A DNA stretch of 64,000 nucleotides from an uncultured Armatimonadetes bacterium (lineage in GTDB: Bacteria > Armatimonadota > UBA5829). The notes under the pieces were generated by a model. That model was not told the origin of the DNA. It was given only the letters and a program-made list of their open reading frames with translations, and searched no databases. Of the stretch, positions 40,307 through 52,613 are shown piece after piece. Location: positions 261,262 through 325,261 of the forward strand of contig CAVQDB010000004.1 in NCBI GenBank assembly GCA_963711155.1. The letters are read 5' to 3'. Numbering within the stretch: the first letter of the stretch is position 1; each line of letters begins with the position of its first letter. A program made the translations under genes and the position numbers.

Positions 40307-42180
40307 CGACACGTTCGGCCGCCTCAAGACCTACAAGCCGACCACCGGCCCGATCTCCGGGGTCAGTCTGCGGTACGACTACAACTCGCTGGGCCGGAAG
40401 AAGGAGGTCAGGATCAAGGACGGCGTCGGCGCGACCGTGCACTCCACGACCTACGACTACTACCGCAACGGCTGGCTGAAGGACATCAACTACGACGGGA
40501 GCAGGGTCGCCGAGTATACTCACGACGCAGTCGGGCTTCTTGCGCAGATCGACTTCTACCACGACGACCCCGTGTTAGGCAACATCGCTACCGGCGCGTA
40601 TGATGTCTACTCCTACGACACCAGCGACCCGCGCGACTTCCTCAAGACGATCACGATGCACTACAAGGACGCCGTCGGGAATCCCGCGTCGTCGGTCGTC
40701 GACTACACCGACGGTGAGGGCCACCCCAACGTGGACAAGGCCGGGAACCAGTTGTCGATGGGCAATCTCGCCGGTCAATGGACCTACACCTACGACCACG
40801 CCGGCAGGATCGCCTCAATCGTTCCCCCCAACCCCGTCCCCGAGCAGGGCCTGGGCGGCGACTACCGCTACAACTGGCTCGGCCAACTGACCAACCCTCC
40901 CGCCGACCCCAACCACCTCACCTACAACTCCGCCGGCCTCCTCTCCACCTGGCCAGGGATGTACAGCTACACGCGTAAGCCTAACGGCGCACTTGACCAG
41001 GTGAAGGACACTTCTGGACTGCAGACCATTGCTTCACTTAGCTATGACTCAGCTGGCTTTCTCGACCAGGTTGTGTGCGGCTGCTGCGCTACCACGCGAT
41101 GCAGCTGGGATGCCGATGGAGGGTTCCTCGGATACGCCGAGACTGGTGGCGGGTCGGATACTCAGTCAGTGCTTGCCGATCCTACCACTGGATCGGCAGA
41201 GATGGACGACGTATCAGGCAGCGCGGTTCCCTATGTTTGCGATCCACAAGGGGACGTGATTGCCAGTGCCGCATCGGCTGGCGGCGCAGCGCATTACCAC
41301 TCCGACGCAGACGGACGGATTCAGCTGTCGACCGGGGCCGACGGGCGCATGGTTTCGACTTACGAACGCGGGCCGAACGGCGGCGCGATCTTCACGTCAG
41401 ACCCGCTAGGTTCGAGGATTGCGAGCAAGGACGGCACGAGCACATGGCCGCCGCGGTGGATGGATCCAACCGGTAGCTTGAGCGGTCTCTGGGACGGCTA
41501 CTGGGGTGACGTTGGTGCGGTGTTCGCCGGCGAAGCCAGCGTGCTGAACCCCGTCAACTGGTACAACTCCGGCAAGAGCCTCTTTGAAGGCTATATCACC
41601 GCGCAAGTAGAAGGTTACCGGTACAAGGGTCAGGTACTACTCGGGGAATTTCGCGGTCACTGCCTGGGAATTGGACAGGGTGTTTCCTGCTCTGGCTCGG
41701 TCGTATACGGACCTATTCCAGCTCGACGACCCGTACCGGTTCGGCTCGTCAGTGATGACTTGGGAGCTAACCCTCGCTCCTTTGGCAGACAGACTGCCGA
41801 GCTCAGGATCAGCTCTCTGCCCCTGCGCCACAGGCATTGCTGAGGTCCCAGCCCTCGAGGAGATTGTCGGGGTTCGCAAGGTGCCGAATCCCCATGGTAG
41901 CCCGGGCGGCCCCTTGCATAGTGGAACGATCACTGAGCTCAGCGATCTGCTGGAGGGGCTGGGACGTGACGTTACTAGAGAGAAGAAATTCGACACTCCA
42001 GGTGGGCTCAAGCCCTACCGCAGACCGGATCTCCTTTGGGAAGAACCGGGCCTGGGCCAGGTCGCGATACAGGTGTACAAACCGACCAAGGGTGGGAGGA
42101 TACCCCTCCGCGAACTCAAAGCCATGCAGGATCTGAAGCTTGGCGGGTGTAGTCGCGTCATATTCGTGCCGTACGAGTAG
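40307..42180 (+). CDS. Orphan RHS cassette 3 with a restriction-endonuclease-fold (PD-(D/E)xK-like) toxin (frameshifted)
   Basis: RHS core copy; tip in ORF 41671..42180: GGPLH...REKKFDTPGG.KPYRRPDL...AIQV.K...PLRE..A..D. Confidence 0.75.
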
Positions 42181-42186
42181 GGGGAG

Positions 42187-42681
42187 ATGAGAGTGATGGG
42201 AAAACAGACGGGGTTCTTCATGTCTGAATCTGACGAGGCGGAGTTCCTGGGATTGGTCGGGGATCACGGCGACGTGATCCTGGGTCTTGACGCGCGCGAG
42301 TTGACGGTCGAGGAAGCCCTGCACTACGCACGGAGGAAGGTCTTCATTGCGTTGCCCCAGTCGGAGCCGACTCTGTCTGCGTTCGGCCTCATCTCGTCGG
42401 CTGCGGAGGTAGTCGAGTTCTGGCGGTGCCTGAGGCGAGGTGATGGGCACATAGAGGATGGAAGGATCTGGGCTGAGTTCCGGGACTACGACAGCAGTGG
42501 CAGACTGGTGCCTCGGGCCAAGCAGTTCCAGGACATGTACAGCTTCTACGCCAAGTGGATCAAGAAGCACTACCGAATCAGCAGTAATAAGCGCTACTAC
42601 ATCGGCCCGGAGGCCTACCGGAAGTACAAGGAAGACGGATGGACTATGCGGAGCGGCGTTGTCACGGTTGAGTTTGAGTGA
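42187..42681 (+). CDS. Putative immunity protein
   Basis: 164-aa ORF 6 bp after the toxin stop; GKQTGFFM.ESDE.EF, GRIW, WIKKHY, YYIGPEAY. Confidence 0.7.
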   Translation: MRVMGKQTGFFMSESDEAEFLGLVGDHGDVILGLDARELTVEEALHYARRKVFIALPQSEPTLSAFGLISSAAEVVEFWRCLRRGDGHIEDGRIWAEFRDYDSSGRLVPRAKQFQDMYSFYAKWIKKHYRISSNKRYYIGPEAYRKYKEDGWTMRSGVVTVEFE

Positions 42682-42687
42682 GCTGTT

Positions 42688-42764
42688 CGGCTGTGGGAGT
42701 ATCGGTCCAGCACATCCGTGTGCTGGATCAGACCCGTAGCCGATGCCGACCGAACATTGACAAC
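42688..42764 (+). promoter_or_regulatory. Hairpin plus boxA-like motif, type A copy 3
   Basis: GGTCCAGCAC-ATCCGT-GTGCTGGATC stem-loop, then GAACATTGACAAC. Confidence 0.5.
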
Positions 42765-42771
42765 ATGGCGC

Positions 42772-44481
42772 GAGCTATCTCGTCACGGACGTGTATCGGG
42801 ACAGCAAGCACGTAACGTATTCCTACGACACGTTCGGGCGGCTCAAGACCTACAAGCCGACCACCGGCCCGATTGTCGGGGTCAGTCTGTGGTATGACTA
42901 CAACTTGCTGGGGCAGAAGAAAGAGGTCACGATCAAGGACGGCGTCGGCGCGACCGTTCACTCCACGACCTACGACTACTACCGCAACGGGTGGCTGAAG
43001 TCGATAAACTACGACGGCAGCAAGGTCGCCGAGTATTCGCACAACGCGCTCGGCCTTCTCTCGCAGATCGCCTTCTACAACGGCTCGACGGGCCACCGGC
43101 GCGTATGATGTCTATTCCTACGACTCAACCGACCCGCGCAACTTCCTCAAGACCATCACGATGCACTACAAGGACGCTGGCGGGAATCCCGCGTCGTCGG
43201 TCGTCGACTACACCGACGGTAACGGCAACCCGAACGTGGACAAGGCCGGCAACCAGCTATCGATGGGCAACCTCGCCGGCCAGTGGACCTACACCTACGA
43301 CCACGCCGGCAGGATCGCGTCGATCGTCCCCCCCAACCCCGTCCCCGAGCAGGGCCTGGGCGGCGACTACGGCTACAACTGGCTCGGCCAGCTAACCAAC
43401 CCTCCCGCCGACCCCAACCACCTCACCTACAACTCCGCCGGCCTCCTCGCCACCTGGCCGGGGATGTATAGCTACACCTACAAGGCGAACGGCGCGCCCC
43501 ATCAGATCAAGAATCCTTCCGGATCCCTGACGCTTGCGTCCTTCACCTATGATTCGGCCGAACTGCCAAGCGAACTGCAGGTGTCGGGCGTAAGCGCAGA
43601 ACTCCTGTGGGACGCAGACGACACACTTCTGGGGTACAGCGAGACTGCCGGAGGCTCGGAGAGCCAGTCCGTGCTCACAGACCCCACTGCTTCCGTATCG
43701 CCGGCTCTGATGGCGGACGTGTCGGGCACTGTGGTATACTACGTTTGCGATCCGGAAGGGTGCGCGGTTGCGAGCGTCTCGGGCGGCAGTAGGGCAGATT
43801 GCCATTCCGACGGCTATGGCCGCATCCAGCTAGCGACCGGAGACAGTGGCGCAGTCGAGCACACCTACGTCTACGGTCCCGACGATGAGCTGATCTCGAC
43901 GGATGATCCGCTGGGACAGAGTGTCGTTCCCGGCATCGCGCTTCTGTCCATCGGGAAGCCGCCGTGGTACGTTGAGTTCGTTCCGTTCGTTGGTCCAGCC
44001 TGGTCGGCGATTGATGACTTCCAGAACGGGAACTACCTGGGGGGCATAGTCAACACAGCCTTTGCTGTCAGCGACGTTGTGGGTCTCGGAGCCGCGGGCA
44101 AAGCGATCAAGATCGCGAAGAAGATCTCAGGTCCTGCTGTCACGAGCTGGGCGTGGAAGAATGCGAGTCGTCGGTTGCACAAGGCTGGCTTCGCCGGGCT
44201 CAGGGAACCAATCCATCACTACATCATACGGCAAGGCGGCGACACCGCCGAGCGACTGGCCGAGAAGTTCGGGAAGGAGAGAGTTGAGAGGTGGGCTCGG
44301 CCACCCACTGGGCCTGGTGAACGTGAATGATCAGTTTGTTCATAATGCAATAGAGGGCAAAGGTAGGGCCAGCTGGGGGCTTGCGAGGCGTCTCTGGAAA
44401 GGGACGCCGGCTTGGCCCAAGCTGCTGTTGCCCGGCAGGATGTCGCCACTTCTTAACTCGCTTCCCTGCGACTGCGAATGA
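42772..44481 (+). CDS. Orphan RHS cassette 4 with an HNH-like toxin (frameshifted)
   Basis: RHS core copy; tip REPIHHYII...LVNVNDQFVHNAI; ends LPCDCE. Confidence 0.75.
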
Positions 44482-44924
44482 TCACTACGAGAAATCTGTC
44501 ATACCCGGTCATTGTGGTTGATGAGGATGGCTATTGCATGGTTGCTGTAGACGAGGACACCCTCACTACGCTGAACAACGTTACTCTCAAGCGTGGTGGC
44601 TTTGATGATTGCACGTTCGTCGATAGCAACGGTCAGGCTGCGAAGGTGAAAGAGACAAGACGGGTAGCGCCAAAGGGGCGATTCCTCGGCTTCACAATAT
44701 GGTTGGAGCGCATGTTCCGGGTCGAGTACACGCTTAGTGAGCCGTTTGAGATGCCGCTGGAGAAGCTCCGGGCGATCGTCCTTCGCGACGTGAGAAGAGC
44801 CGGAGGATCCCTGCACCCGGACTACTATCGGGAGGAACTGAGTAGGTTCAAGAACGCCCAGACCATTCGGGAGATCATTGAGCTCAGATTGCCAAACGCC
44901 GACCTGAAGGAGTTCTGGAAGTGA
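44478..44924 (+). CDS. Putative immunity protein
   Basis: 148-aa ORF with an ATGA overlap on the toxin stop. Confidence 0.65.
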   Translation: MITTRNLSYPVIVVDEDGYCMVAVDEDTLTTLNNVTLKRGGFDDCTFVDSNGQAAKVKETRRVAPKGRFLGFTIWLERMFRVEYTLSEPFEMPLEKLRAIVLRDVRRAGGSLHPDYYREELSRFKNAQTIREIIELRLPNADLKEFWK

Positions 44925-45081
44925 GGGGAGACGCGGCTGCGCATCATGCTCGAGCGATCTCGTTGCAGCATCTGGCAGCGCGGACTGGAGGGAGGCCCGC
45001 TATGGCGTCTGTGACTGTCCATGAACTAGCTTTCCCAGTGATTGAGTTCTATGTCTCCCTATAGAAGTGGCGTCAATAGCC

Positions 45082-45262
45082 AACTGCGTTTTTTGTTAGT
45101 TGCAGTTTGAGCGATTTCCCTATTGGCGCTTTGTGTGCGCAGATTATCGTCGCGTATCAGGAGCCTCTCAATTCGGGGCTGGACCATCAAGTGGTCAGAC
45201 ACATAGTCGGAGAGTGCTCCATCATATCGTTGTTCTGCGCATTATCTGCAGTGTTACTGGTA
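45082..45262 (-). ncRNA. Predicted bridge RNA (target- and donor-binding loops), copy 1
   Basis: Two stem / internal-loop / hairpin modules whose loop strands match the flanks and the element ends. Confidence 0.75.
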
Positions 45263-46297
45263 TCATGCGGCGGCCTTCCTCGGGGCGGCCTTCGAATTAT
45301 CCCATGCTTTGCCGTGCGCGAGCATCTGATGAATCACCCTCACGGCTTTGCGCGCCACGGCCATCTTCGCCGCGTTGGTATGGTTCCTGAACTGCACCCG
45401 CCAGTAGGTTGTGCGCAGGGCGTTGTCCTTCCTGCTGTGACTGGTCCTCTGCGCCAGCAGCCCGATTGCGTAACGCAACCACCGGTTGCCCCAGTTGCCC
45501 AGGCTGCCGTAGTAGCAGCTCTGACCGCTCTGAAACACTCTGGGCGCAAGCCCGACGTAGGATATCAACTGACTCGAACGCTTGAAACGTGCAATGTCGC
45601 CAATCTCCGCCTTGACCAGCAGGGCCGTCAAAGGTCCCACGCCGGGGATGGTCTGCAGTAACGCGCATTCCTTGTCTTGTGCTGCTTCCTCCTCTATGGC
45701 GGCCTGAAGTTCGTTCTCTATCTCTTGCGCCTTCTGCAGCAGTTCACGCCAAAGCTGCATCACCCTGGCCGAACGCGCCGGGAGTTGCGCCTGATCCAAG
45801 TCTAACCCGCCGCCTTTTGTCATCAAGCGCCTATGGCCGACATACCCCCAGCACTTAAGAAGACTGCCCATCTCGTTAGTCAGCCGAGTCGCCCACCTGC
45901 TGATTCGGACTTTGCCGCGAACCAGCACTCGCAGATCCTGGGTCTTCTCATCAGGAATGTAGAGGCATTCTATCTCGCCTCGATACAGCATCTGCGCCAT
46001 CCGCAGCGCGTCGTTGCGGTCCGTCTTTGCCCGGCGATCTTTTCGTCGATCCCACAGTTTCGTTGGATCGGCCACAGTAAGCGTCTCGAACAACGGTCTC
46101 AAGTCACGGTAGATTGCCCATGAGTTGATGCCTGACTCCATAACCCCATGCAACGGGCCCTGCAGTCCTCCGAACAACTCCCTCAAGCTGTCCGGGTCAT
46201 TCGGAACCCGATCGCGTTCGACGATCTCACCTGTGAGCGGGTCGAATCCCACAATCGTGATCCACTTGCAATGTACGTCCAATGCGATGTATAACAT
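45263..46297 (-). CDS. IS110 family recombinase (DEDD RuvC-like plus Tnp domain)
   Basis: IALDVH, VMES, KTDRNDA (DEDD); LLQTIPGVG, EIGDIARF, FQSG (catalytic Ser), AVARK. Confidence 0.96.
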   Translation of the reverse strand: MLYIALDVHCKWITIVGFDPLTGEIVERDRVPNDPDSLRELFGGLQGPLHGVMESGINSWAIYRDLRPLFETLTVADPTKLWDRRKDRRAKTDRNDALRMAQMLYRGEIECLYIPDEKTQDLRVLVRGKVRISRWATRLTNEMGSLLKCWGYVGHRRLMTKGGGLDLDQAQLPARSARVMQLWRELLQKAQEIENELQAAIEEEAAQDKECALLQTIPGVGPLTALLVKAEIGDIARFKRSSQLISYVGLAPRVFQSGQSCYYGSLGNWGNRWLRYAIGLLAQRTSHSRKDNALRTTYWRVQFRNHTNAAKMAVARKAVRVIHQMLAHGKAWDNSKAAPRKAAA

Positions 46298-46430
46298 TGT
46301 TGGCTTGACCTCCTATCGCTGTGTTTGTCAAACTGCGACTATGATCGCCTACTAAACACAGCTGAGGCAAGCCACTTCTTCATGATAATTCGGGGCTGCA
46401 CCGAGTCGTGGCCTTGACGATCAAGCGTAA

Positions 46431-46476
46431 GGACAGATGCGTCGCGGGTTCGTCTTTAGCCGCGACGCAGCTGTCC
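46431..46476. repeat. REP-like palindrome upstream of the RAYT fragment (second copy at 48111..48156)
   Basis: ggacagatgcgtcgcgg-N12-ccgcgacgcagctgtcc. Confidence 0.55.
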
Positions 46477-46538
46477 GTCAGTGAGAACGAGGCTGGCTGC
46501 CAGAGGAGAAGCCGTTGCGGGGGGCGAATATAGCGGGC

Positions 46539-46735
46539 ATGAAGTGGCGCAATATCGACGTTGGCAACGCGGCCCACTACATCACGGGCACGATCACCGA
46601 GTGGCTGCCGCTGCTGACCATCACGGAGATCAGGCAGCGGGTGTGCGATGACATCGAGTTCGCCCTCGATCTGTTCAACGGGGCGCTGCTCGCGTTCGTA
46701 ATAATGCCGACACACGTGCATCTGCTCTCTATGTG
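46539..46735 (+). pseudogene. N-terminal fragment of an HUH Y1 transposase (RAYT / IS200-like), cut by IS110 copy 2
   Basis: HYITGTITEWLPL...AFVIMPTHVHLL with the HUH motif. Confidence 0.8.
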
Positions 46736-46761
46736 TCCCTATACAAGCGGCGTCAATAGCC

Positions 46762-46942
46762 AGCTGCGTTTTTTGTTAGTTGCAGTTTGAGCGATTTCCC
46801 TATTGGCGCTTTGTGTGCGCAGATTATCGTCGCGTATCAGGAGCCTCTCAATTCGGGGCTGGACCATCAAGTGGTCAGACACATAGTCGGAGAGTGCTCC
46901 ATCATATCGTTGTTCTGCGCATTATCTGCAGTGTTACTGGTA
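46762..46942 (-). ncRNA. Predicted bridge RNA, copy 2
   Basis: Same loops as copy 1. Confidence 0.75.
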
Positions 46943-47977
46943 TCATGCGGCGGCCTTCCTCGGGGCGGCCTTCGAATTATCCCATGCTTTGCCGTGCGCG
47001 AGCATCTGATGAATCACCCTCACGGCTTTGCGCGCCACGGCCATCTTCGCCGCGTTGGTATGGTTCCTGAACTGCACCCGCCAGTAGGTTGTGCGCAGGG
47101 CGTTGTCCTTCCTGCTGTGACTGGTCCTCTGCGCCAGCAGCCCGATTGCGTAACGCAACCACCGGTTGCCCCAGTTGCCCAGGCTGCCGTAGTAGCAGCT
47201 CTGACCGCTCTGAAACACTCTGGGCGCAAGCCCGACGTAGGATATCAACTGACTCGAACGCTTGAAACGTGCAATGTCGCCAATCTCCGCCTTGACCAGC
47301 AGGGCCGTCAAAGGTCCCACGCCGGGGATGGTCTGCAGTAACGCGCATTCCTTGTCTTGTGCTGCTTCCTCCTCTATGGCGGCCTGAAGTTCGTTCTCTA
47401 TCTCTTGCGCCTTCTGCAGCAGTTCACGCCAAAGCTGCATCACCCTGGCCGAACGCGCCGGGAGTTGCGCCTGATCCAAGTCTAACCCGCCGCCTTTTGT
47501 CATCAAGCGCCTATGGCCGACATACCCCCAGCACTTAAGAAGACTGCCCATCTCGTTAGTCAGCCGAGTCGCCCACCTGCTGATTCGGACTTTGCCGCGA
47601 ACCAGCACTCGCAGATCCTGGGTCTTCTCATCAGGAATGTAGAGGCATTCTATCTCGCCTCGATACAGCATCTGCGCCATCCGCAGCGCGTCGTTGCGGT
47701 CCGTCTTTGCCCGGCGATCTTTTCGTCGATCCCACAGTTTCGTTGGATCGGCCACAGTAAGCGTCTCGAACAACGGTCTCAAGTCACGGTAGATTGCCCA
47801 TGAGTTGATGCCTGACTCCATAACCCCATGCAACGGGCCCTGCAGTCCTCCGAACAACTCCCTCAAGCTGTCCGGGTCATTCGGAACCCGATCGCGTTCG
47901 ACGATCTCACCTGTGAGCGGGTCGAATCCCACAATCGTGATCCACTTGCAATGTACGTCCAATGCGATGTATAACAT
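46943..47977 (-). CDS. IS110 family recombinase
   Basis: Protein identical to 45263..46297. Confidence 0.96.
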   Translation of the reverse strand: MLYIALDVHCKWITIVGFDPLTGEIVERDRVPNDPDSLRELFGGLQGPLHGVMESGINSWAIYRDLRPLFETLTVADPTKLWDRRKDRRAKTDRNDALRMAQMLYRGEIECLYIPDEKTQDLRVLVRGKVRISRWATRLTNEMGSLLKCWGYVGHRRLMTKGGGLDLDQAQLPARSARVMQLWRELLQKAQEIENELQAAIEEEAAQDKECALLQTIPGVGPLTALLVKAEIGDIARFKRSSQLISYVGLAPRVFQSGQSCYYGSLGNWGNRWLRYAIGLLAQRTSHSRKDNALRTTYWRVQFRNHTNAAKMAVARKAVRVIHQMLAHGKAWDNSKAAPRKAAA

Positions 47978-48244
47978 TGTTGGCTTGACCTCCTATCGCT
48001 GTGTTTGTCAAACTGCGACTATGATCGCCTACTAGACACAGCTGAGGCAAGCCACTTCTTCATGATAATTCGGGGCTGCACCCAGTCGTCGCCTTGACGA
48101 TCAAGCGTAAGGACAGATGCGTCGCGGGCTCGTCTTTCGCCCCGACGCAGCTGTCCGTCAGTGAGCACGAGGCTGGCTGCCAGAGGAGAAGCCGTTGCGC
48201 GGCGCGAATATAGCGGCATGAAGTGGCGCAATATGGATGTGGGC

Positions 48245-48475
48245 TACGACGCCAACAACCGTCTGACCACGGCCGCGCCTCCGAACCCGGTTCCGGGGCA
48301 GCCCGCGGGTGGACCGTATGATTACGACTGGGTGGGCAATCGCATCCATCCGCCCGCCGACCCGAACTCGATGACCTACAACGCCGCCGATCAGCTCCTG
48401 ACCTGGCCGGGCATGCATACCTACACCTACTACCCCGACGGTAGCCTGCACGAGGAGAAGAACGCTGTGGGCTGA
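48245..48475 (+). pseudogene. Divergent RHS fragment
   Basis: YDANNRLTT..PPNPVPGQ..GG.YDYDWVGN...PPADPN..TYNAADQL.TWPGM, paralogous to the array core. Confidence 0.7.
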
Positions 48476-48736
48476 GCGTGGGGAGACGGTGGAGAAGCTC
48501 CTGGAGCAGGTGCTGCGGCAGACGTCCAGCGAGATCGCGGCGTTGGCTGCCGAGGTGGAAGCGCGAGGCAATCAACTGGCATCGAGCTGGCTTGCCAGGT
48601 TCCGGGCACGGGCTCGCGGCAAGGCTCGCGTGCGACCTAGTTGTTTGGTGCATAGCAAACGGAGCGGGAGCCCGCTCCATTTCCGCCCCAAAGTCCCCAA
48701 CGCCCAACGCTGGATGCAGGGCGCCAACGCAAGCGG

Positions 48737-49195
48737 CTAGCGCGGCACCAGCGCTCGCAACCTGGCAAGGAATGCTCTCCGCTGCTGAGGATCAGGCACG
48801 AACTCGTCGAGCAGCGACTGCATTCCCTCGGTGATGAACTTCAACTCGGTCTTCGTGAACGCAGTGCGGTCGTGTGCGCGGGTCATCCGGTCGATCAGCA
48901 CGCTGACGGTGTCGATGAGACGCCAAAGCGAGGCCAAGTCGGCGCTGGTGACGCTCTGAGCGCACTCCACTGCGTCGAGCTTGTGCCGAAGCAAACCGCG
49001 AGCTACAGCAAGTTCGGTTGTGATGCCAAACGGGTCGGGCGACTGCCCGGTCTGCTCGATGTGCCGGCGCAGTTGGGATTTCGACACATGCTCACGTAGG
49101 CCGCCGGGAATCCGCGCGCCGGCTCTGACGGTGAGGCGATTGGGCGTTAGGAGAGGATACTGACACGTCTGGATAGGCTTTGACACGGGCTGCAC
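48737..49195 (-). CDS. Hypothetical helical protein
   Basis: 152-aa ORF with plausible composition; no family recognised. Confidence 0.35.
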   Translation of the reverse strand: MQPVSKPIQTCQYPLLTPNRLTVRAGARIPGGLREHVSKSQLRRHIEQTGQSPDPFGITTELAVARGLLRHKLDAVECAQSVTSADLASLWRLIDTVSVLIDRMTRAHDRTAFTKTELKFITEGMQSLLDEFVPDPQQRRAFLARLRALVPR

Positions 49196-49374: not shown

Positions 49375-49873
49375 TGACCCGTACCCGATTGTACGGACAG
49401 TTTGTCATGCTGCTTGAAGCAGCTCAAACATAGCGGGCGACGTGTATCGCAGGGTCGAGTGACGCCGCTGGCAGTTGTAGAAGATCTCTATATAGTGAAA
49501 TACGTTCCTCCTGGCTTCGCTCCTGCTGTGGTAGTGCCTGTGGTGGGTGCATTCCGTCTTCATGCTGCCATAGAAGCTTTCCATCGCGGCGTTGTCCCAG
49601 CAGTCGCCCTTTCTGCTGATCGAGCATACCATGCCCGTGCTGACTCAGCAGCTTCTGATAGTCGTTGCTGGCATACTGGACACCGCGATCTGAGTGATGC
49701 AGCAGCCCAGCCACCGGCTTTCTCTGGCGGATCGCCATGCGCAGCGCGTCCATGGCCAGATCTCGGGTGACACGCTCGTCCATCGACCAGCCCACCACCC
49801 TACGGCAATACAGGTCCATCACAGTGGCCAGGTAGAGCCAGCCTTCCTCAGTTGGGATATAGGTGATGTCCGA
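49375..49873 (-). mobile_element. IS3-family remnant (rve/DDE C-terminal half plus right end)
   Basis: [60 protein letters not shown]; ends ...gggtCA at 49375. Confidence 0.85.
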
Positions 49874-51236: not shown

Positions 51237-52613
51237 ATGACCTTCGCGGTCAAGACCCATCTGCTGCTTCCCAAACTCAGATGCGCCACCTGTGGTGAGC
51301 GGCTCTACGTGGACAAGCGCGAGGAACATCGCCACAGAGTCTACTGGTGCAAGAACAAGAGCGTTACGAGAGGGCACGCCTGCGTTGGCGCCAGGGCCAA
51401 GATAGCGTGGGCCGACGGCGTTGTGATCGAGGTCTTGACGAAGCTCTCGCAGGACGAGCGCATCATGACCGCGGCTGAGGCTATTATCGACAAAGAACTG
51501 AGCCAGAACACCGGCAAGCTTAGGCAGGAGAAGGCAAAGATAGACACCGACCTGCGCGCAGATCGGATACGCCTCGCTGAGATGGTCGAAAAGCTGGCAG
51601 CCCGCGGGATAGGAGAGTTGGCCTACAAGGCGTATGAAGACAAGGTGGAGGCGGCAATCGAAGAGCGGCTGGCACGGTTGCGGGAGATAGACTCGGCTCT
51701 CTCAAGTGGGGATGCCAACAGGCAAAGGATACAGCAGGCAAAGGAGATGCTGCGGGATTTTGGCACCGTTTGGGAAGGCCTCACTATCGACGAAAAGCGT
51801 AAGGCAATAGACTTACTAATCGAGGACCTGCGGCTTTCTCAGACTCACCTCATCATAAAGCCTCACTCTGCTGACCAGGTGGAGGTGCGCATACCTGTCG
51901 GCAGGTTTAGAGAGGGCAAACCGGGTGAGGCCCGCGGTCTTTCGCAGCGCGAGCTGTCGGTTCTGAAGATGCTGGGTGACGGGCTGACGGCGAGACAAAT
52001 CGCGGAGCGCACTGGCCTGGCGATGCAGACGGTCTACGGCCACATCAGCCGGATCTATTCCTGGCTGGGAGTGGATGATGCCGCTGCCGCGGTGGACATG
52101 GCACGGCCTGTTATCGAGGAGGCCGGAGAACTGCCGACGGACCGGCGGCTCGACGTGGCCCGCGAGTTTTCGGACAAGCCAACCGAGAAGATGCTTGCTG
52201 TGCTTCGCGCTGTCGCCAAGCACCCCACGCAGGCCGAGGCCTACCGAGAATTGGGTATGCCTTACATGAATGGATCGCAACGGCTGCGGGCGTTGATGAA
52301 GAAGACTGGCACCGAGAGCCTCGACGCCCTTTTCGAGATAGCTGTCCAGAGAGGCTGGATCGAGTCCGTGCCGGAACGCAAGGAAAAGGGACTTGTATTC
52401 ACGCCGGGCGAAGCCGAGATGATAAGGGCGTGTCTCTCATCGCGATCCATAGCCGCCGCCGGCAGATCTCTGGGGATCACGTCGGTCGCGGCGGCGAGCC
52501 GGATGCACACGGTATACGTGAAGCTCGGGGCACACAATGTGAAGCAAGCCCTGGACAAGCTGCGGGAACTCGGCGTTGATCCTGCGGCACTGCACATCTC
52601 CGCCGCTAACTGA
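51237..52613 (+). CDS. Large-serine-recombinase C-terminal half (Zn ribbon plus coiled coil) fused to three LuxR-like HTH units; catalytic domain absent
   Basis: LRCATCG...YWC...C, coiled coil, LTIDEKRKAIDLLIE; LSQRELSVL..LGDGLTARQIAE..GLAMQTVYGH. Confidence 0.7.
   Translation: MTFAVKTHLLLPKLRCATCGERLYVDKREEHRHRVYWCKNKSVTRGHACVGARAKIAWADGVVIEVLTKLSQDERIMTAAEAIIDKELSQNTGKLRQEKAKIDTDLRADRIRLAEMVEKLAARGIGELAYKAYEDKVEAAIEERLARLREIDSALSSGDANRQRIQQAKEMLRDFGTVWEGLTIDEKRKAIDLLIEDLRLSQTHLIIKPHSADQVEVRIPVGRFREGKPGEARGLSQRELSVLKMLGDGLTARQIAERTGLAMQTVYGHISRIYSWLGVDDAAAAVDMARPVIEEAGELPTDRRLDVAREFSDKPTEKMLAVLRAVAKHPTQAEAYRELGMPYMNGSQRLRALMKKTGTESLDALFEIAVQRGWIESVPERKEKGLVFTPGEAEMIRACLSSRSIAAAGRSLGITSVAAASRMHTVYVKLGAHNVKQALDKLRELGVDPAALHISAAN

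What the first reader, a model, noticed from the sequence alone, without database searches (positions are those of the whole stretch)
45056..46391. IS110 element with a readable bridge RNA in the 3' non-coding end; guides match its own target and donor
Seen: downstream of the recombinase stop (minus strand) is CTCTC-[cgaCTATGTGTCt]-GACCA-cttga-TGGTC-[CAGCCCCGAatt]-GAGAG. The first loop strand equals the left flank plus core (CTATGTG-TC; exact for copy 2, one mismatch for copy 1). The second is the reverse complement of core plus right flank (TC-GGGGCTG). This defines a 16-bp target CTATGTG-TC-GGGGCTG. A second module, GCGA-[cGATAATct]-GCGC-acacaaa-GCGC-[caATAGGGAaa]-TCGC, matches the two element ends (GATAAT at 46384-89; TCCCTAT at 45056-62); the left donor guide pairs over only 6 nt and is imperfect at the core. 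Established: IS110 recombinases such as IS621 use bispecific bridge RNAs. Inference: this is a bridge recombinase with a TC/GA core, two 9-nt target guides and a downstream-encoded RNA, so a candidate programmable tool. Whether this element is already catalogued cannot be judged here.
Basis: partly seen in the sequence, partly recalled or inferred. Interest (0 to 1): 0.85.

Follow-up and report, generated by a model that had tools for sequence, protein, structure and literature searches.

The report
IS1111-type insertion sequence with bridge RNA
Two near-identical copies of a small jumping gene carry, after their recombinase gene, a folded guide RNA whose loops spell out both the DNA site they landed in and the element's own ends; this is a real but already known kind of RNA-guided mobile element, here in an uncatalogued lineage.

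Summary
Window 45056-46391 (minus strand) is a 1336-bp IS110-family element, and a second copy (4 differences) lies at 46736-48071. Downstream of the 344-aa DEDD/Ser recombinase gene lies a ~110-nt structured region. Its first internal loop carries CTATGTGTC and CAGCCCCGA, which match the two halves of the 16-bp target CTATGTG-TC-GGGGCTG. Its second loop matches the element's own ends. Three of the four drawn helices show compensatory changes in 43 homologous sequences. The outer helix of the donor loop does not. Both target-loop strands covary with the flanks of homologous elements (42 and 36 distinct guides; 0 of 10,000 permutations reach the observed match). The genome holds one perfect empty site. 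All other copies of the targeted REP-like repeat have two or more mismatches and are unoccupied. The downstream position of the RNA, the subterminal inverted repeats and the order of the guides are the published hallmarks of the IS1111 group (bridge RNA / seekRNA, 2024). So this is a new member of a known kind, not a new mechanism. The recombinase is far from catalogued relatives (31% or less in plasmid records). Expression and activity could not be tested.

The parts
45056..46391 (-). IS copy 1, both 2-nt core copies (GA) included; 1336 bp
   Evidence: Alignment of the two copies with flanks; coordinates checked
46736..48071 (-). IS copy 2; 4 differences from copy 1 (window 46355, 45083, 45068, 45064 in copy 1 numbering)
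45263..46297 (-). Recombinase gene, 344 aa (copy 2: 46943-47977, identical protein)
   Evidence: ORF list. Pfam PF01548 E 1e-14 and PF02371 E 1.1e-20. NCBIfam NF033542 'IS110 family RNA-guided transposase' 198 bits, cut-off 140. E54, D96, S257 invariant and D7, D93 nearly invariant in 45 homologues. That these are the catalytic residues is my inference from the IS621 residues named.
46298..46389 (-). Left end, 92 nt non-coding; begins ATTATCATGA
45058..45262 (-). Right end, 205 nt non-coding; holds the guide RNA module; ends ...TTGACGCCACTTCTATAGG
45160..45220 (-). Target-binding module: outer helix, internal loop, inner hairpin (copy 2: 46840-46900)
   Evidence: Single-sequence fold; RNAalifold; pair counts with compensatory changes
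45198..45206 (-). 5' loop guide CTATGTGTC. It is complementary to the element-orientation top strand of core plus right flank (GA-CACATAG)
   Evidence: covaries with the right flank in homologues
45170..45181 (-). 3' loop guide CAGCCCC-GA plus ATT. It is identical to left flank + core + first 3 nt of the left end (ATT = handshake-like extension)
   Evidence: covaries with the left flank; the triplet covaries with the left-end start
45111..45153 (-). Donor-binding module. 5' loop GATAAT is the reverse complement of left-end nt 1-6. 3' loop ATAGG-GA equals the last 5 nt of the right end plus core
   Evidence: Inner helix GCGC/GCGC has compensatory changes. Outer helix GCGA/TCGC does not
46371..46379 (-). 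Subterminal inverted repeat, left arm AGAAGTGGC
   Evidence: the arms covary in homologues (AGAAATGGC, AGAAGCGGC, ATGGAATCGGCT)
45063..45071 (-). Subterminal inverted repeat, right arm GCCACTTCT (copy 2 has GCCGCTTGT, 2 mismatches to its left arm)
45071..45076 (-). TTGACG: -35-like hexamer in the right end. In a circle junction it would sit 17 nt from TATCAT (46382-46387) in the left end
   Evidence: Read from the sequence. Both hexamers are conserved in homologues. Promoter function is inferred by analogy
46392..46500 (+). REP-like ~105-nt repeat holding the right target half GGGGCTG (second occupied copy at 48072-48180)
   Evidence: BLAST of the flank against the genome; copies listed

Best explanation
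This is an insertion sequence of the IS110 superfamily with the IS1111-type layout: short left end, DEDD/Ser recombinase gene, and a long right end that encodes a bridge RNA (also called seekRNA). By analogy with characterised relatives, the RNA is bound by the recombinase. Its first internal loop pairs with both strands of the target CTATGTG-TC-GGGGCTG. That site lies at the 5' foot of the first hairpin of a REP-like genomic repeat. The second loop pairs with the joined ends of the excised circular element (ATAGG-GA-ATTATC). Recombination at the shared GA/TC core inserts the element, leaving GA at both junctions. Three extra letters (AUU) after the core in the 3' target-loop strand match the start of the left end. 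They probably capture the donor strand after exchange, like the handshake guides of IS621. The circle junction would bring TTGACG and TATCAT 17 nt apart, making a promoter for the recombinase gene. Shown here: sequence matches, conserved structure, covariation, site occupancy. Inferred: transcription, protein binding, circle formation, catalysis.
For: Protein: PF01548 + PF02371; NF033542 above cut-off; GLAPRVFQSG motif read; E54/D96/S257 invariant in 45 homologues.
Structure: on 43 sequences 91.6% of cells pair, against 81.6% shuffled. 15 of 24 pairs show changes on both sides, and 0 of 500 shuffles reach any of the five measures. Slid registers give 28-48% pairing. RNAalifold independently returns the same three helices, with 14 of 19 pairs compensatory.
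Guides versus flanks: left side 195 of 294 positions match in 42 distinct guides, against 90.6 +/- 7.9 permuted. Right side 217 of 252 in 36 distinct guides, against 146.0 +/- 5.6. In both cases 0 of 10,000 permutations reach the observed value.
Donor loop: its 3' strand equals the right-end terminus in 32 of 32 loci across 5 variants (ATAGG/ATAGA/ATAGT/ATAGC/ATAAG). Its 5' strand versus the left end gives 104 against 89.6 +/- 3.0, 0 of 10,000.
Handshake triplet equals the left-end start in 38 of 53 pairs (ATT, ACT and AAT all covary).
Occupancy: the two occupied sites have 0 and 1 mismatch. Of 16 unoccupied repeat copies, one has 0 mismatches and the rest have 2 or more.
The covariance model finds the module on the gene's strand in 71 of 83 related loci (downstream of the gene in those inspected). 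Only 3 places in the own genome match, all next to a recombinase gene or its remnant.
A third, degenerate copy (84% aa identity over 225 residues) carries different guides.
Literature: IS1111-group RNA lies in the right end. The seekRNA is essential and reprogrammable, with the top-strand complement first.
Against: There is no evidence of transcription. The promoter/terminator scan finds no terminator, and its only promoter-like hit lies inside the RNA module. The single-sequence fold is only marginally better than shuffles, and it pairs the donor region differently. The outer helix of the donor loop lacks support: 79% paired, no compensatory change, not predicted by RNAalifold. The 5' strand of the donor loop reads CU where UC would complement the core, here and in many relatives, so donor pairing at the core is imperfect or shifted. 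One perfect target is still empty. Copy 2 has two mismatches in its right inverted repeat. So activity may be low or lost. Many homologous loci are short metagenome contigs, whose flanks can be chimeric; L023 was an evident wrap-around and was dropped. Guide-flank matches are often only 4-6 of 7. Homologues are related, so permutation counts overstate independence.
Confidence: 0.9

Rival explanations
1. The element is real, but the conserved right-end structure works as DNA (for example single-stranded hairpins or recombinase binding sites, as in IS200/IS605 ends). No RNA guide is involved.
For: No transcript could be shown. The matches are sequence identities, which would also allow DNA-DNA pairing. 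No terminator-like site was found.
Against: G-U pairs occur in the helices (for example 5-72 GU:3, 27-51 GU:2, 30-49 UG:2/GU:1). They would be A-C mismatches on the other strand, so one strand is selected. All 72 model matches lie on the gene's strand. In characterised IS1111-family members the equivalent region yields an RNA that co-purifies with the transposase and is essential (Siddiquee 2024, abstract and section 9).
Confidence: 0.04
2. The loop-flank matches arise by chance, or because the right end merely captured a copy of its target. The two copies arose by segmental duplication, not by guided insertion.
For: The two copies are 344 bp apart. Their left flanks are homologous (6 differences in 109 nt; 91% over 189 nt).
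Against: The flanks differ about 20 times more than the elements do (5.5% against 0.3%). The right flanks are unrelated beyond about 7 nt. Guides and flanks covary across dozens of different specificities on a constant scaffold. The two halves of the target lie on opposite loop strands in opposite senses, not as a captured contiguous copy.
Confidence: 0.02
3. The guide RNA system is as described, but these copies are inactive relics.
For: A perfect target is unoccupied. There are only two full copies plus one degenerate copy in 5.6 Mb. Copy 2 has a damaged right inverted repeat.
Against: Both reading frames are intact and identical, with the conserved catalytic positions kept. The copies are 99.7% identical while their flanks have diverged. 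Copy 1 keeps a perfect 9-bp inverted repeat.
Confidence: 0.25

Closest known systems
IS1111-family insertion sequences with seekRNA (ISEc11, ISPa11, ISKpn4, ISPst6; Siddiquee et al. 2024, PMC11187229)
   Same: The longer non-coding region is downstream of the transposase gene. Subterminal inverted repeats are present. The transposase is 344 aa (their range is 330-350) with the GL-P----SG motif. The complement of the top strand of the target comes before the bottom-strand match. The target is a hairpin-forming repeat, as ISPa11 targets REP. The joined ends would form a promoter. (Paper. Element.)
   Different: The transposase is only locally similar to a bona fide member: IS4321 of R751, 27% over 93 aa, E 2e-10. 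My RNA model does not match R751 at E 0.01 or lower. The inverted repeat here is 9 bp with 10 and 5 nt beyond it, against their usual 11-13 bp with 7 and 3. Relatives at about 50-60% identity do have 11-12 bp with 5-6 (+2 core) and 3.
IS621 / ISCro4 bridge recombinases (IS110 group; Durrant 2024 PMC11208160; Hiraizumi 2024 PMC11208158)
   Same: Two-loop bispecific RNA. 7+2-nt guides that include a 2-nt core. Each guide pairs with the 3' half of one strand. Extra letters next to the core match the other partner (handshake logic). DEDD + Ser recombinase. (element.)
   Different: The RNA is encoded in the right end, not the left, and the guide order is reversed relative to the gene's strand. The core is GA/TC instead of CT. 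Protein similarity is limited to the C-terminal part (E 1e-7 and 3e-8). There was no Rfam match for the region.
ISPpu9 of Pseudomonas putida (IS110 family in REP, small RNA gene downstream; PMC12288879; search listing and abstract start only)
   Same: It inserts in repetitive extragenic palindromes and has a small-RNA gene downstream of the transposase gene. Separate pieces of the element occur elsewhere in its genome.
   Different: I read only the start of the abstract. Here the model finds no orphan copy of the RNA module. Only a 60-nt right-end-like fragment lies beside another repeat copy.

Membership tests
IS110 superfamily (DEDD RNA-guided recombinase elements) | N-terminal DEDD (RuvC-like) domain and C-terminal PF02371 domain with a conserved Ser | tested here: met
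   PF01548 E 1e-14, PF02371 E 1.1e-20. NF033542 198 bits, above the 140 cut-off. E54, D96, S257 invariant and D7, D93 nearly invariant.
IS110 superfamily (DEDD RNA-guided recombinase elements) | Site-specific insertion without terminal inverted repeats, with a short core present at both junctions | tested here: met
   GA at both junctions of both copies. A 16-bp target can be reconstructed and is found intact once in the genome.
IS110 superfamily (DEDD RNA-guided recombinase elements) | Non-coding end encodes a structured RNA with one loop matching the target and one matching the donor ends | tested here: met
   (in silico only).
IS110 superfamily (DEDD RNA-guided recombinase elements) | The RNA is transcribed, binds the recombinase and is required for recombination | not testable with these tools
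   No run on record as RNA held the stretch. This needs bench work.
IS1111 group | Longer non-coding region downstream of the gene (short left end, long right end) | tested here: met
   Left end 92 nt, right end 205 nt. Criterion.
IS1111 group | Subterminal inverted repeats (7-17 bp per Durrant; usually 11-13 bp per Siddiquee) | tested here: met
   9 bp, AGAAGTGGC/GCCACTTCT. Relatives have 9-12 bp with compensatory variants.
IS1111 group | Terminal extensions of 7 bp (left) and 3 bp (right) beyond the repeats | tested here: not met
   Here 10 nt (12 with the core) and 5 nt. Relatives L059/L061/L072 have 5 (+2 core) and 3.
IS1111 group | In the RNA, the complement of the target top strand precedes the bottom-strand match | tested here: met
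   The 5' loop CUAUGUGUC complements GA-CACATAG on the gene's strand. The 3' loop CAGCCCCGA equals that strand. Criterion.
IS1111 group | Transposase related over its full length to IS1111-type transposases (phylogenetic placement) | tested here: inconclusive
   BLASTP to the IS4321 transposase gives 27% over 93 aa. Similarity to IS621/ISCro4 is equally weak. No tree with classified references was built, and ISfinder was not available.
IS621-type bridge RNA (left-end encoded) | RNA encoded in the left end, transcribed from the junction promoter, left-target guide 5' of right-target guide | tested here: not met
   The module lies downstream of the gene and the guide order is reversed.

The most novel reading that the evidence does not exclude
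The element and its 50-84% identical metagenomic relatives form an uncatalogued deep lineage of IS1111-type bridge recombinases. It has a compact ~110-nt RNA, a GA core, a 3-nt handshake and at least 36-42 naturally different guide sets on one scaffold. It is active, can be reprogrammed, and is orthogonal to IS621/ISCro4. In addition, the DNA that encodes the guide may itself serve as a half-target. In an Armatimonadetes genome (L097) a right end abuts a partial second RNA module exactly after the core of its 3' guide. That would mean these elements rearrange themselves through their own guide-coding DNA.
Probability: 0.3. Interest if true: 0.5.

Novelty: new member of a known kind. Interest (0 to 1): 0.3.

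Why it matters
Bridge/seekRNA recombinases are being developed as programmable tools for DNA insertion, excision and inversion. This finding gives a fully delimited natural example: ends, core, both guide pairs, handshake letters, empty target and a covariance model. The lineage is far from the characterised enzymes. It also comes with dozens of natural reprogramming events, which show which loop positions are free to vary. That is useful raw material for ortholog screening and for working out IS1111-type rules (donor-loop pairing at the core, handshake length). It does not reveal a new principle.

Tried and rejected
1. I first read the targeted repeat as the left end of an IS200/IS605-like element, because the ORF after it contains a motif that looked HUH-like to me. 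I rejected this. Only the first ~105 nt are repeated in the genome, and the 74-aa ORF fragment has no Pfam match. It is a REP-like two-hairpin repeat.

2. The search for related loci with the single protein in genome contigs found no relative. An alignment query was needed.

3. The Rfam scan of 44000-49000 at E up to 1 gave 0 matches.

4. RNA evidence: the look-up of sequencing runs listed 3 runs with small shares (0.05-0.06), and no holder on record as RNA. I did not use read laying. This says nothing about expression.

5. The promoter/terminator scan gave one promoter-like site inside the RNA module (0.8 expected) and no terminator. It is not informative.

6. Placement among named IS. The best tblastn identity in plasmid records was 31% or less. 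The 14 control genomes gave no loci. I fetched R751 for IS4321, and the comparison was weak. I built no tree because I had no classified IS110-group reference sequence. ISfinder could not be consulted. The supplements of the two 2024 papers (lists of predicted RNAs and targets) were not seen and may already contain relatives.

7. The host taxon was not determined.

8. The degenerate copy on contig C3 could not serve as a right-flank test, because its right end is rearranged.

9. Rows dropped. 65 of the 151 fetched loci entered the parsing (62 of 80, 3 of 71). The rest were partial or 36% identical or less. L023 was dropped from the left-flank count because its 'flank' is the contig's own RNA module. 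Loci without a recognisable end or loop were not counted.
Full report
WHAT IS THERE. Window 45056-46391 holds, on the minus strand, a 1336-bp element. A second copy lies 1680 bp further on, at 46736-48071. The copies differ at 4 positions, three of them in the last 40 nt of the right end. The 109 nt to their left differ at 6 positions, and the sequences to their right are unrelated after about 7 nt.

Each copy encodes an identical 344-aa protein (45263-46297). It carries Pfam DEDD_Tnp_IS110 and Transposase_20. It scores 198 bits against NCBIfam NF033542, 'IS110 family RNA-guided transposase', whose cut-off is 140. In an alignment of 45 homologues, E54, D96 and S257 are invariant and D7 and D93 nearly so. 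That these are the catalytic residues is my inference from the IS621 residues named. S257 sits in GLAPRVFQSG, the GL-P----SG motif described for this superfamily.

ENDS AND TARGET. In element orientation the junctions read CAGCCCC-GA|ATTATC... and ...ATAGG-GA|CACATAG (copy 2) or GACATAG (copy 1). So the pre-insertion site on the plus strand is CTATGTG-TC-GGGGCTG. This exact 16-mer occurs once more in the 5.6-Mb genome, uninterrupted, on contig C3.

The site lies at the start of a ~105-nt repeat with two hairpins. A pattern search found 16 unoccupied copies of this repeat. One has 0 mismatches to the 16-mer, six have 2, and the rest have 3 or more. The two occupied copies had 0 and 1 mismatch. 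My first idea, that the repeat was the end of an IS200-like element, did not hold.

THE RNA MODULE.

The first module is an outer helix (GGAGC-A-CUCUC / GAGAGGCUCC) enclosing an internal loop, with an inner hairpin (GACCA/UGGUC). The 5' strand of the loop contains CUAUGUGUC. This is complementary to GA-CACATAG on the gene's strand. The 3' strand contains CAGCCCCGA followed by AUU, identical to left flank + core + the first three letters of the left end.

The second module has GAUAAU, the reverse complement of left-end letters 1-6, on its 5' strand. It has AUAGGGA, the last five letters of the right end plus core, on its 3' strand.

The single-sequence fold reproduces the first module but not the second, and it is only marginally more stable than shuffles (z -1.87).

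COMPARATIVE TEST. The protein has 803 relatives at E 1e-20 or lower. The best non-self relative is 84% identical, and the 120 listed come almost wholly from metagenomes and metagenome-assembled genomes. With an alignment of 45 of them I fetched 80 metagenome loci and 71 genome loci. 65 of these entered the analysis.

The region after the stop codon is conserved as a scaffold with variable loops. On an alignment of 43 distinct sequences, the structure I derived from the window gives 91.6% standard pairs, against 81.6% in shuffles and 28-48% in slid registers. 15 of 24 pairs show changes on both sides, and 0 of 500 shuffles reach any measure. RNAalifold, run without my structure, returns the same outer and inner helices of the first module and the inner helix of the second, with 14 of 19 pairs compensatory. 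The outer helix of the second module (GCGA/UCGC) has no compensatory change and is not predicted, so that part of the drawing is unsupported.

GUIDE-FLANK COVARIATION. I compared the seven letters before the core in the 3' loop strand with the seven letters left of each element. 195 of 294 positions agree over 42 distinct guides. Re-pairing guides and flanks at random gives 90.6 +/- 7.9, and 0 of 10,000 permutations reach 195.

For the 5' loop strand against the right flank, taking the best of the allowed offsets, 217 of 252 agree over 36 distinct guides. Permutation gives 146.0 +/- 5.6, and 0 of 10,000 reach the observed value. Homologues are related, so these are not true probabilities, but the signal is large and comes from many different guide sequences.

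The donor loop behaves the same way. Its 3' strand equals the right-end terminus in 32 of 32 loci across five variants. Its 5' strand follows the left end: 104 against 89.6 +/- 3.0, 0 of 10,000. The three letters after the core in the target loop equal the start of the left end in 38 of 53 pairs, with ATT, ACT and AAT all represented.

A third, internally deleted copy on contig C3 (84% protein identity over 225 residues) has different guides on the same scaffold and a different left flank. This is natural reprogramming within one genome.

EXTENT OF THE RNA FAMILY. A covariance model built from the alignment finds three places in the own genome: the two copies and the C3 relic. It finds no orphan copies, although only 150 of 1511 first-look candidates were scored. 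It matches 71 of 83 related loci, always on the gene's strand. 42 of these matches are by construction. Among more distant relatives it matches 6 of 55 loci, and it does not match plasmid R751, which carries IS4321. Rfam has no match to the region.

COMPARISON WITH WHAT IS KNOWN. Durrant et al. 2024 state that IS1111-group elements have short left ends, long right ends and subterminal inverted repeats of 7-17 bp. They also state that a bridge RNA is predicted in the right end of 93% of them (passages). Siddiquee et al. 2024 show for four IS1111-family members that the downstream non-coding region gives a seekRNA that co-purifies with the transposase, is essential and can be reprogrammed. In this family the complement of the target's top strand comes first, the reverse of the IS110 type (abstract, sections 6, 9 and 13, and passages).

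The window's element fits these descriptions: left end 92 nt, right end 205 nt, a 9-bp subterminal repeat (AGAAGTGGC/GCCACTTCT), a 344-aa protein, and the same guide order. Relatives have 11-12-bp repeats with the classical 7 (5+core) and 3-nt extensions. Here the extensions are longer.

The AUU extension follows the logic of the handshake guides of IS621 (Hiraizumi et al. 2024, passages). The -35-like TTGACG in the right end and TATCAT in the left end would be 17 nt apart in a circle junction. This matches the junction promoters described for IS621 and ISEc11. It is inference here.

At protein level the element is far from anything characterised. Similarity to ISCro4 and IS621 is confined to the C-terminal part (E 3e-8 and 1e-7). 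Similarity to the IS4321 transposase is 27% over 93 aa. Identity in plasmid records is 31% or less. The best species-representative genome is an Armatimonadetes genome at 62%. I could not build a classified tree or consult ISfinder. Group membership therefore rests on architecture, not phylogeny.

VERDICT. Transcription, binding and activity remain untested. This is a new member of a known kind, in an uncatalogued lineage, and useful as a well-delimited candidate ortholog. Interest 0.3.

Supplementary files of papers were not consulted.

Noticed in passing
window 46392-46500 and 48072-48180; genome contigs C2, C3, C4, C5: A ~105-nt repeat with two hairpins (GGGGCTG..CAGCCCC, then a ~15-bp stem GGACAGATGCTTCGG/CCGAAGCAGATGTCC). 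It has at least 18 copies, some in tandem arrays about 165 or 900 bp apart. There is no Rfam match in the window's copies. It is REP-like and its function is unknown.
   Followed up: partly
L003:1500-2430 (own genome contig C3:805664-806544): A third, degenerate copy of the element: 82% DNA identity, an internal deletion removing the C-terminal part of the gene, and a rearranged right end. Its RNA module is intact but carries different guide letters and a different left flank.
   Followed up: partly
own genome contig C5:937757-937830: Directly beside an intact, unoccupied copy of the target repeat lies a ~60-nt stretch resembling the last 60 nt of the element's right end (22 of 22 identical over TTGACGCCACTTCTATAGGGAG). 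It is followed by a second copy of the target's half-site (GGCATCG against GGCATAG). This is a solo right-end remnant, or a product of partial or modular transposition.
   Followed up: partly
L097:2240-2720 (Armatimonadetes genome, 62% identical recombinase): The right end (…CTTCTATAGC-GA) is followed at once by ACTGGGAGG…, which is the part of a second RNA module that starts exactly after the core of its 3' target guide. Then come a second donor loop, tail and right end. This suggests recombination at the guide-coding DNA itself, which mimics half a target.
   Followed up: partly
L035, L036, L046, L050: In these relatives the right junction reads GG where the left junction and the donor loop read GA. 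The 5' target-loop strand has CC to match. So the two strands of the target loop specify different second core letters.
   Followed up: no
window 45064, 45068, 45083 against copy 2 (46744, 46748, 46763): Three of the four differences between the copies cluster in the last 40 nt of the right end. Copy 2's right inverted-repeat arm (GCCGCTTGT) mismatches its left arm at two positions, and one of these changes gives the letter seen in other subfamilies (GCCGCTT). This could be gene conversion or decay.
   Followed up: no
window 40307-44330 and 48161-48475: ORFs with weak RHS-repeat matches (E 0.0022 at 18.8 bits, below the 22-bit cut-off; E 9.7e-05 at 23.1 bits). They lie in two ~2.5-kb direct repeats (88-92% identity) and are each followed by small ORFs without a family. 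Another fragment with sequence similar to these ORFs (by eye, no Pfam match) follows copy 2. By my reading they look like orphan polymorphic-toxin cassettes; this was not tested.
   Followed up: partly
window 46515-46736 (+): A 74-codon reading frame that starts after the first target repeat is cut off by copy 2. Its first ~15 codons are shared with the frame after the second repeat. It has no Pfam match.
   Followed up: partly
window 49424-49822 (-) and 51237-52613 (+): A fragment of an rve-type integrase core (E 5.5e-13), and a 458-aa protein with a recombinase zinc-ribbon match below cut-off plus a LuxR/GerE helix-turn-helix. The neighbourhood is rich in mobile-element debris.
   Followed up: no
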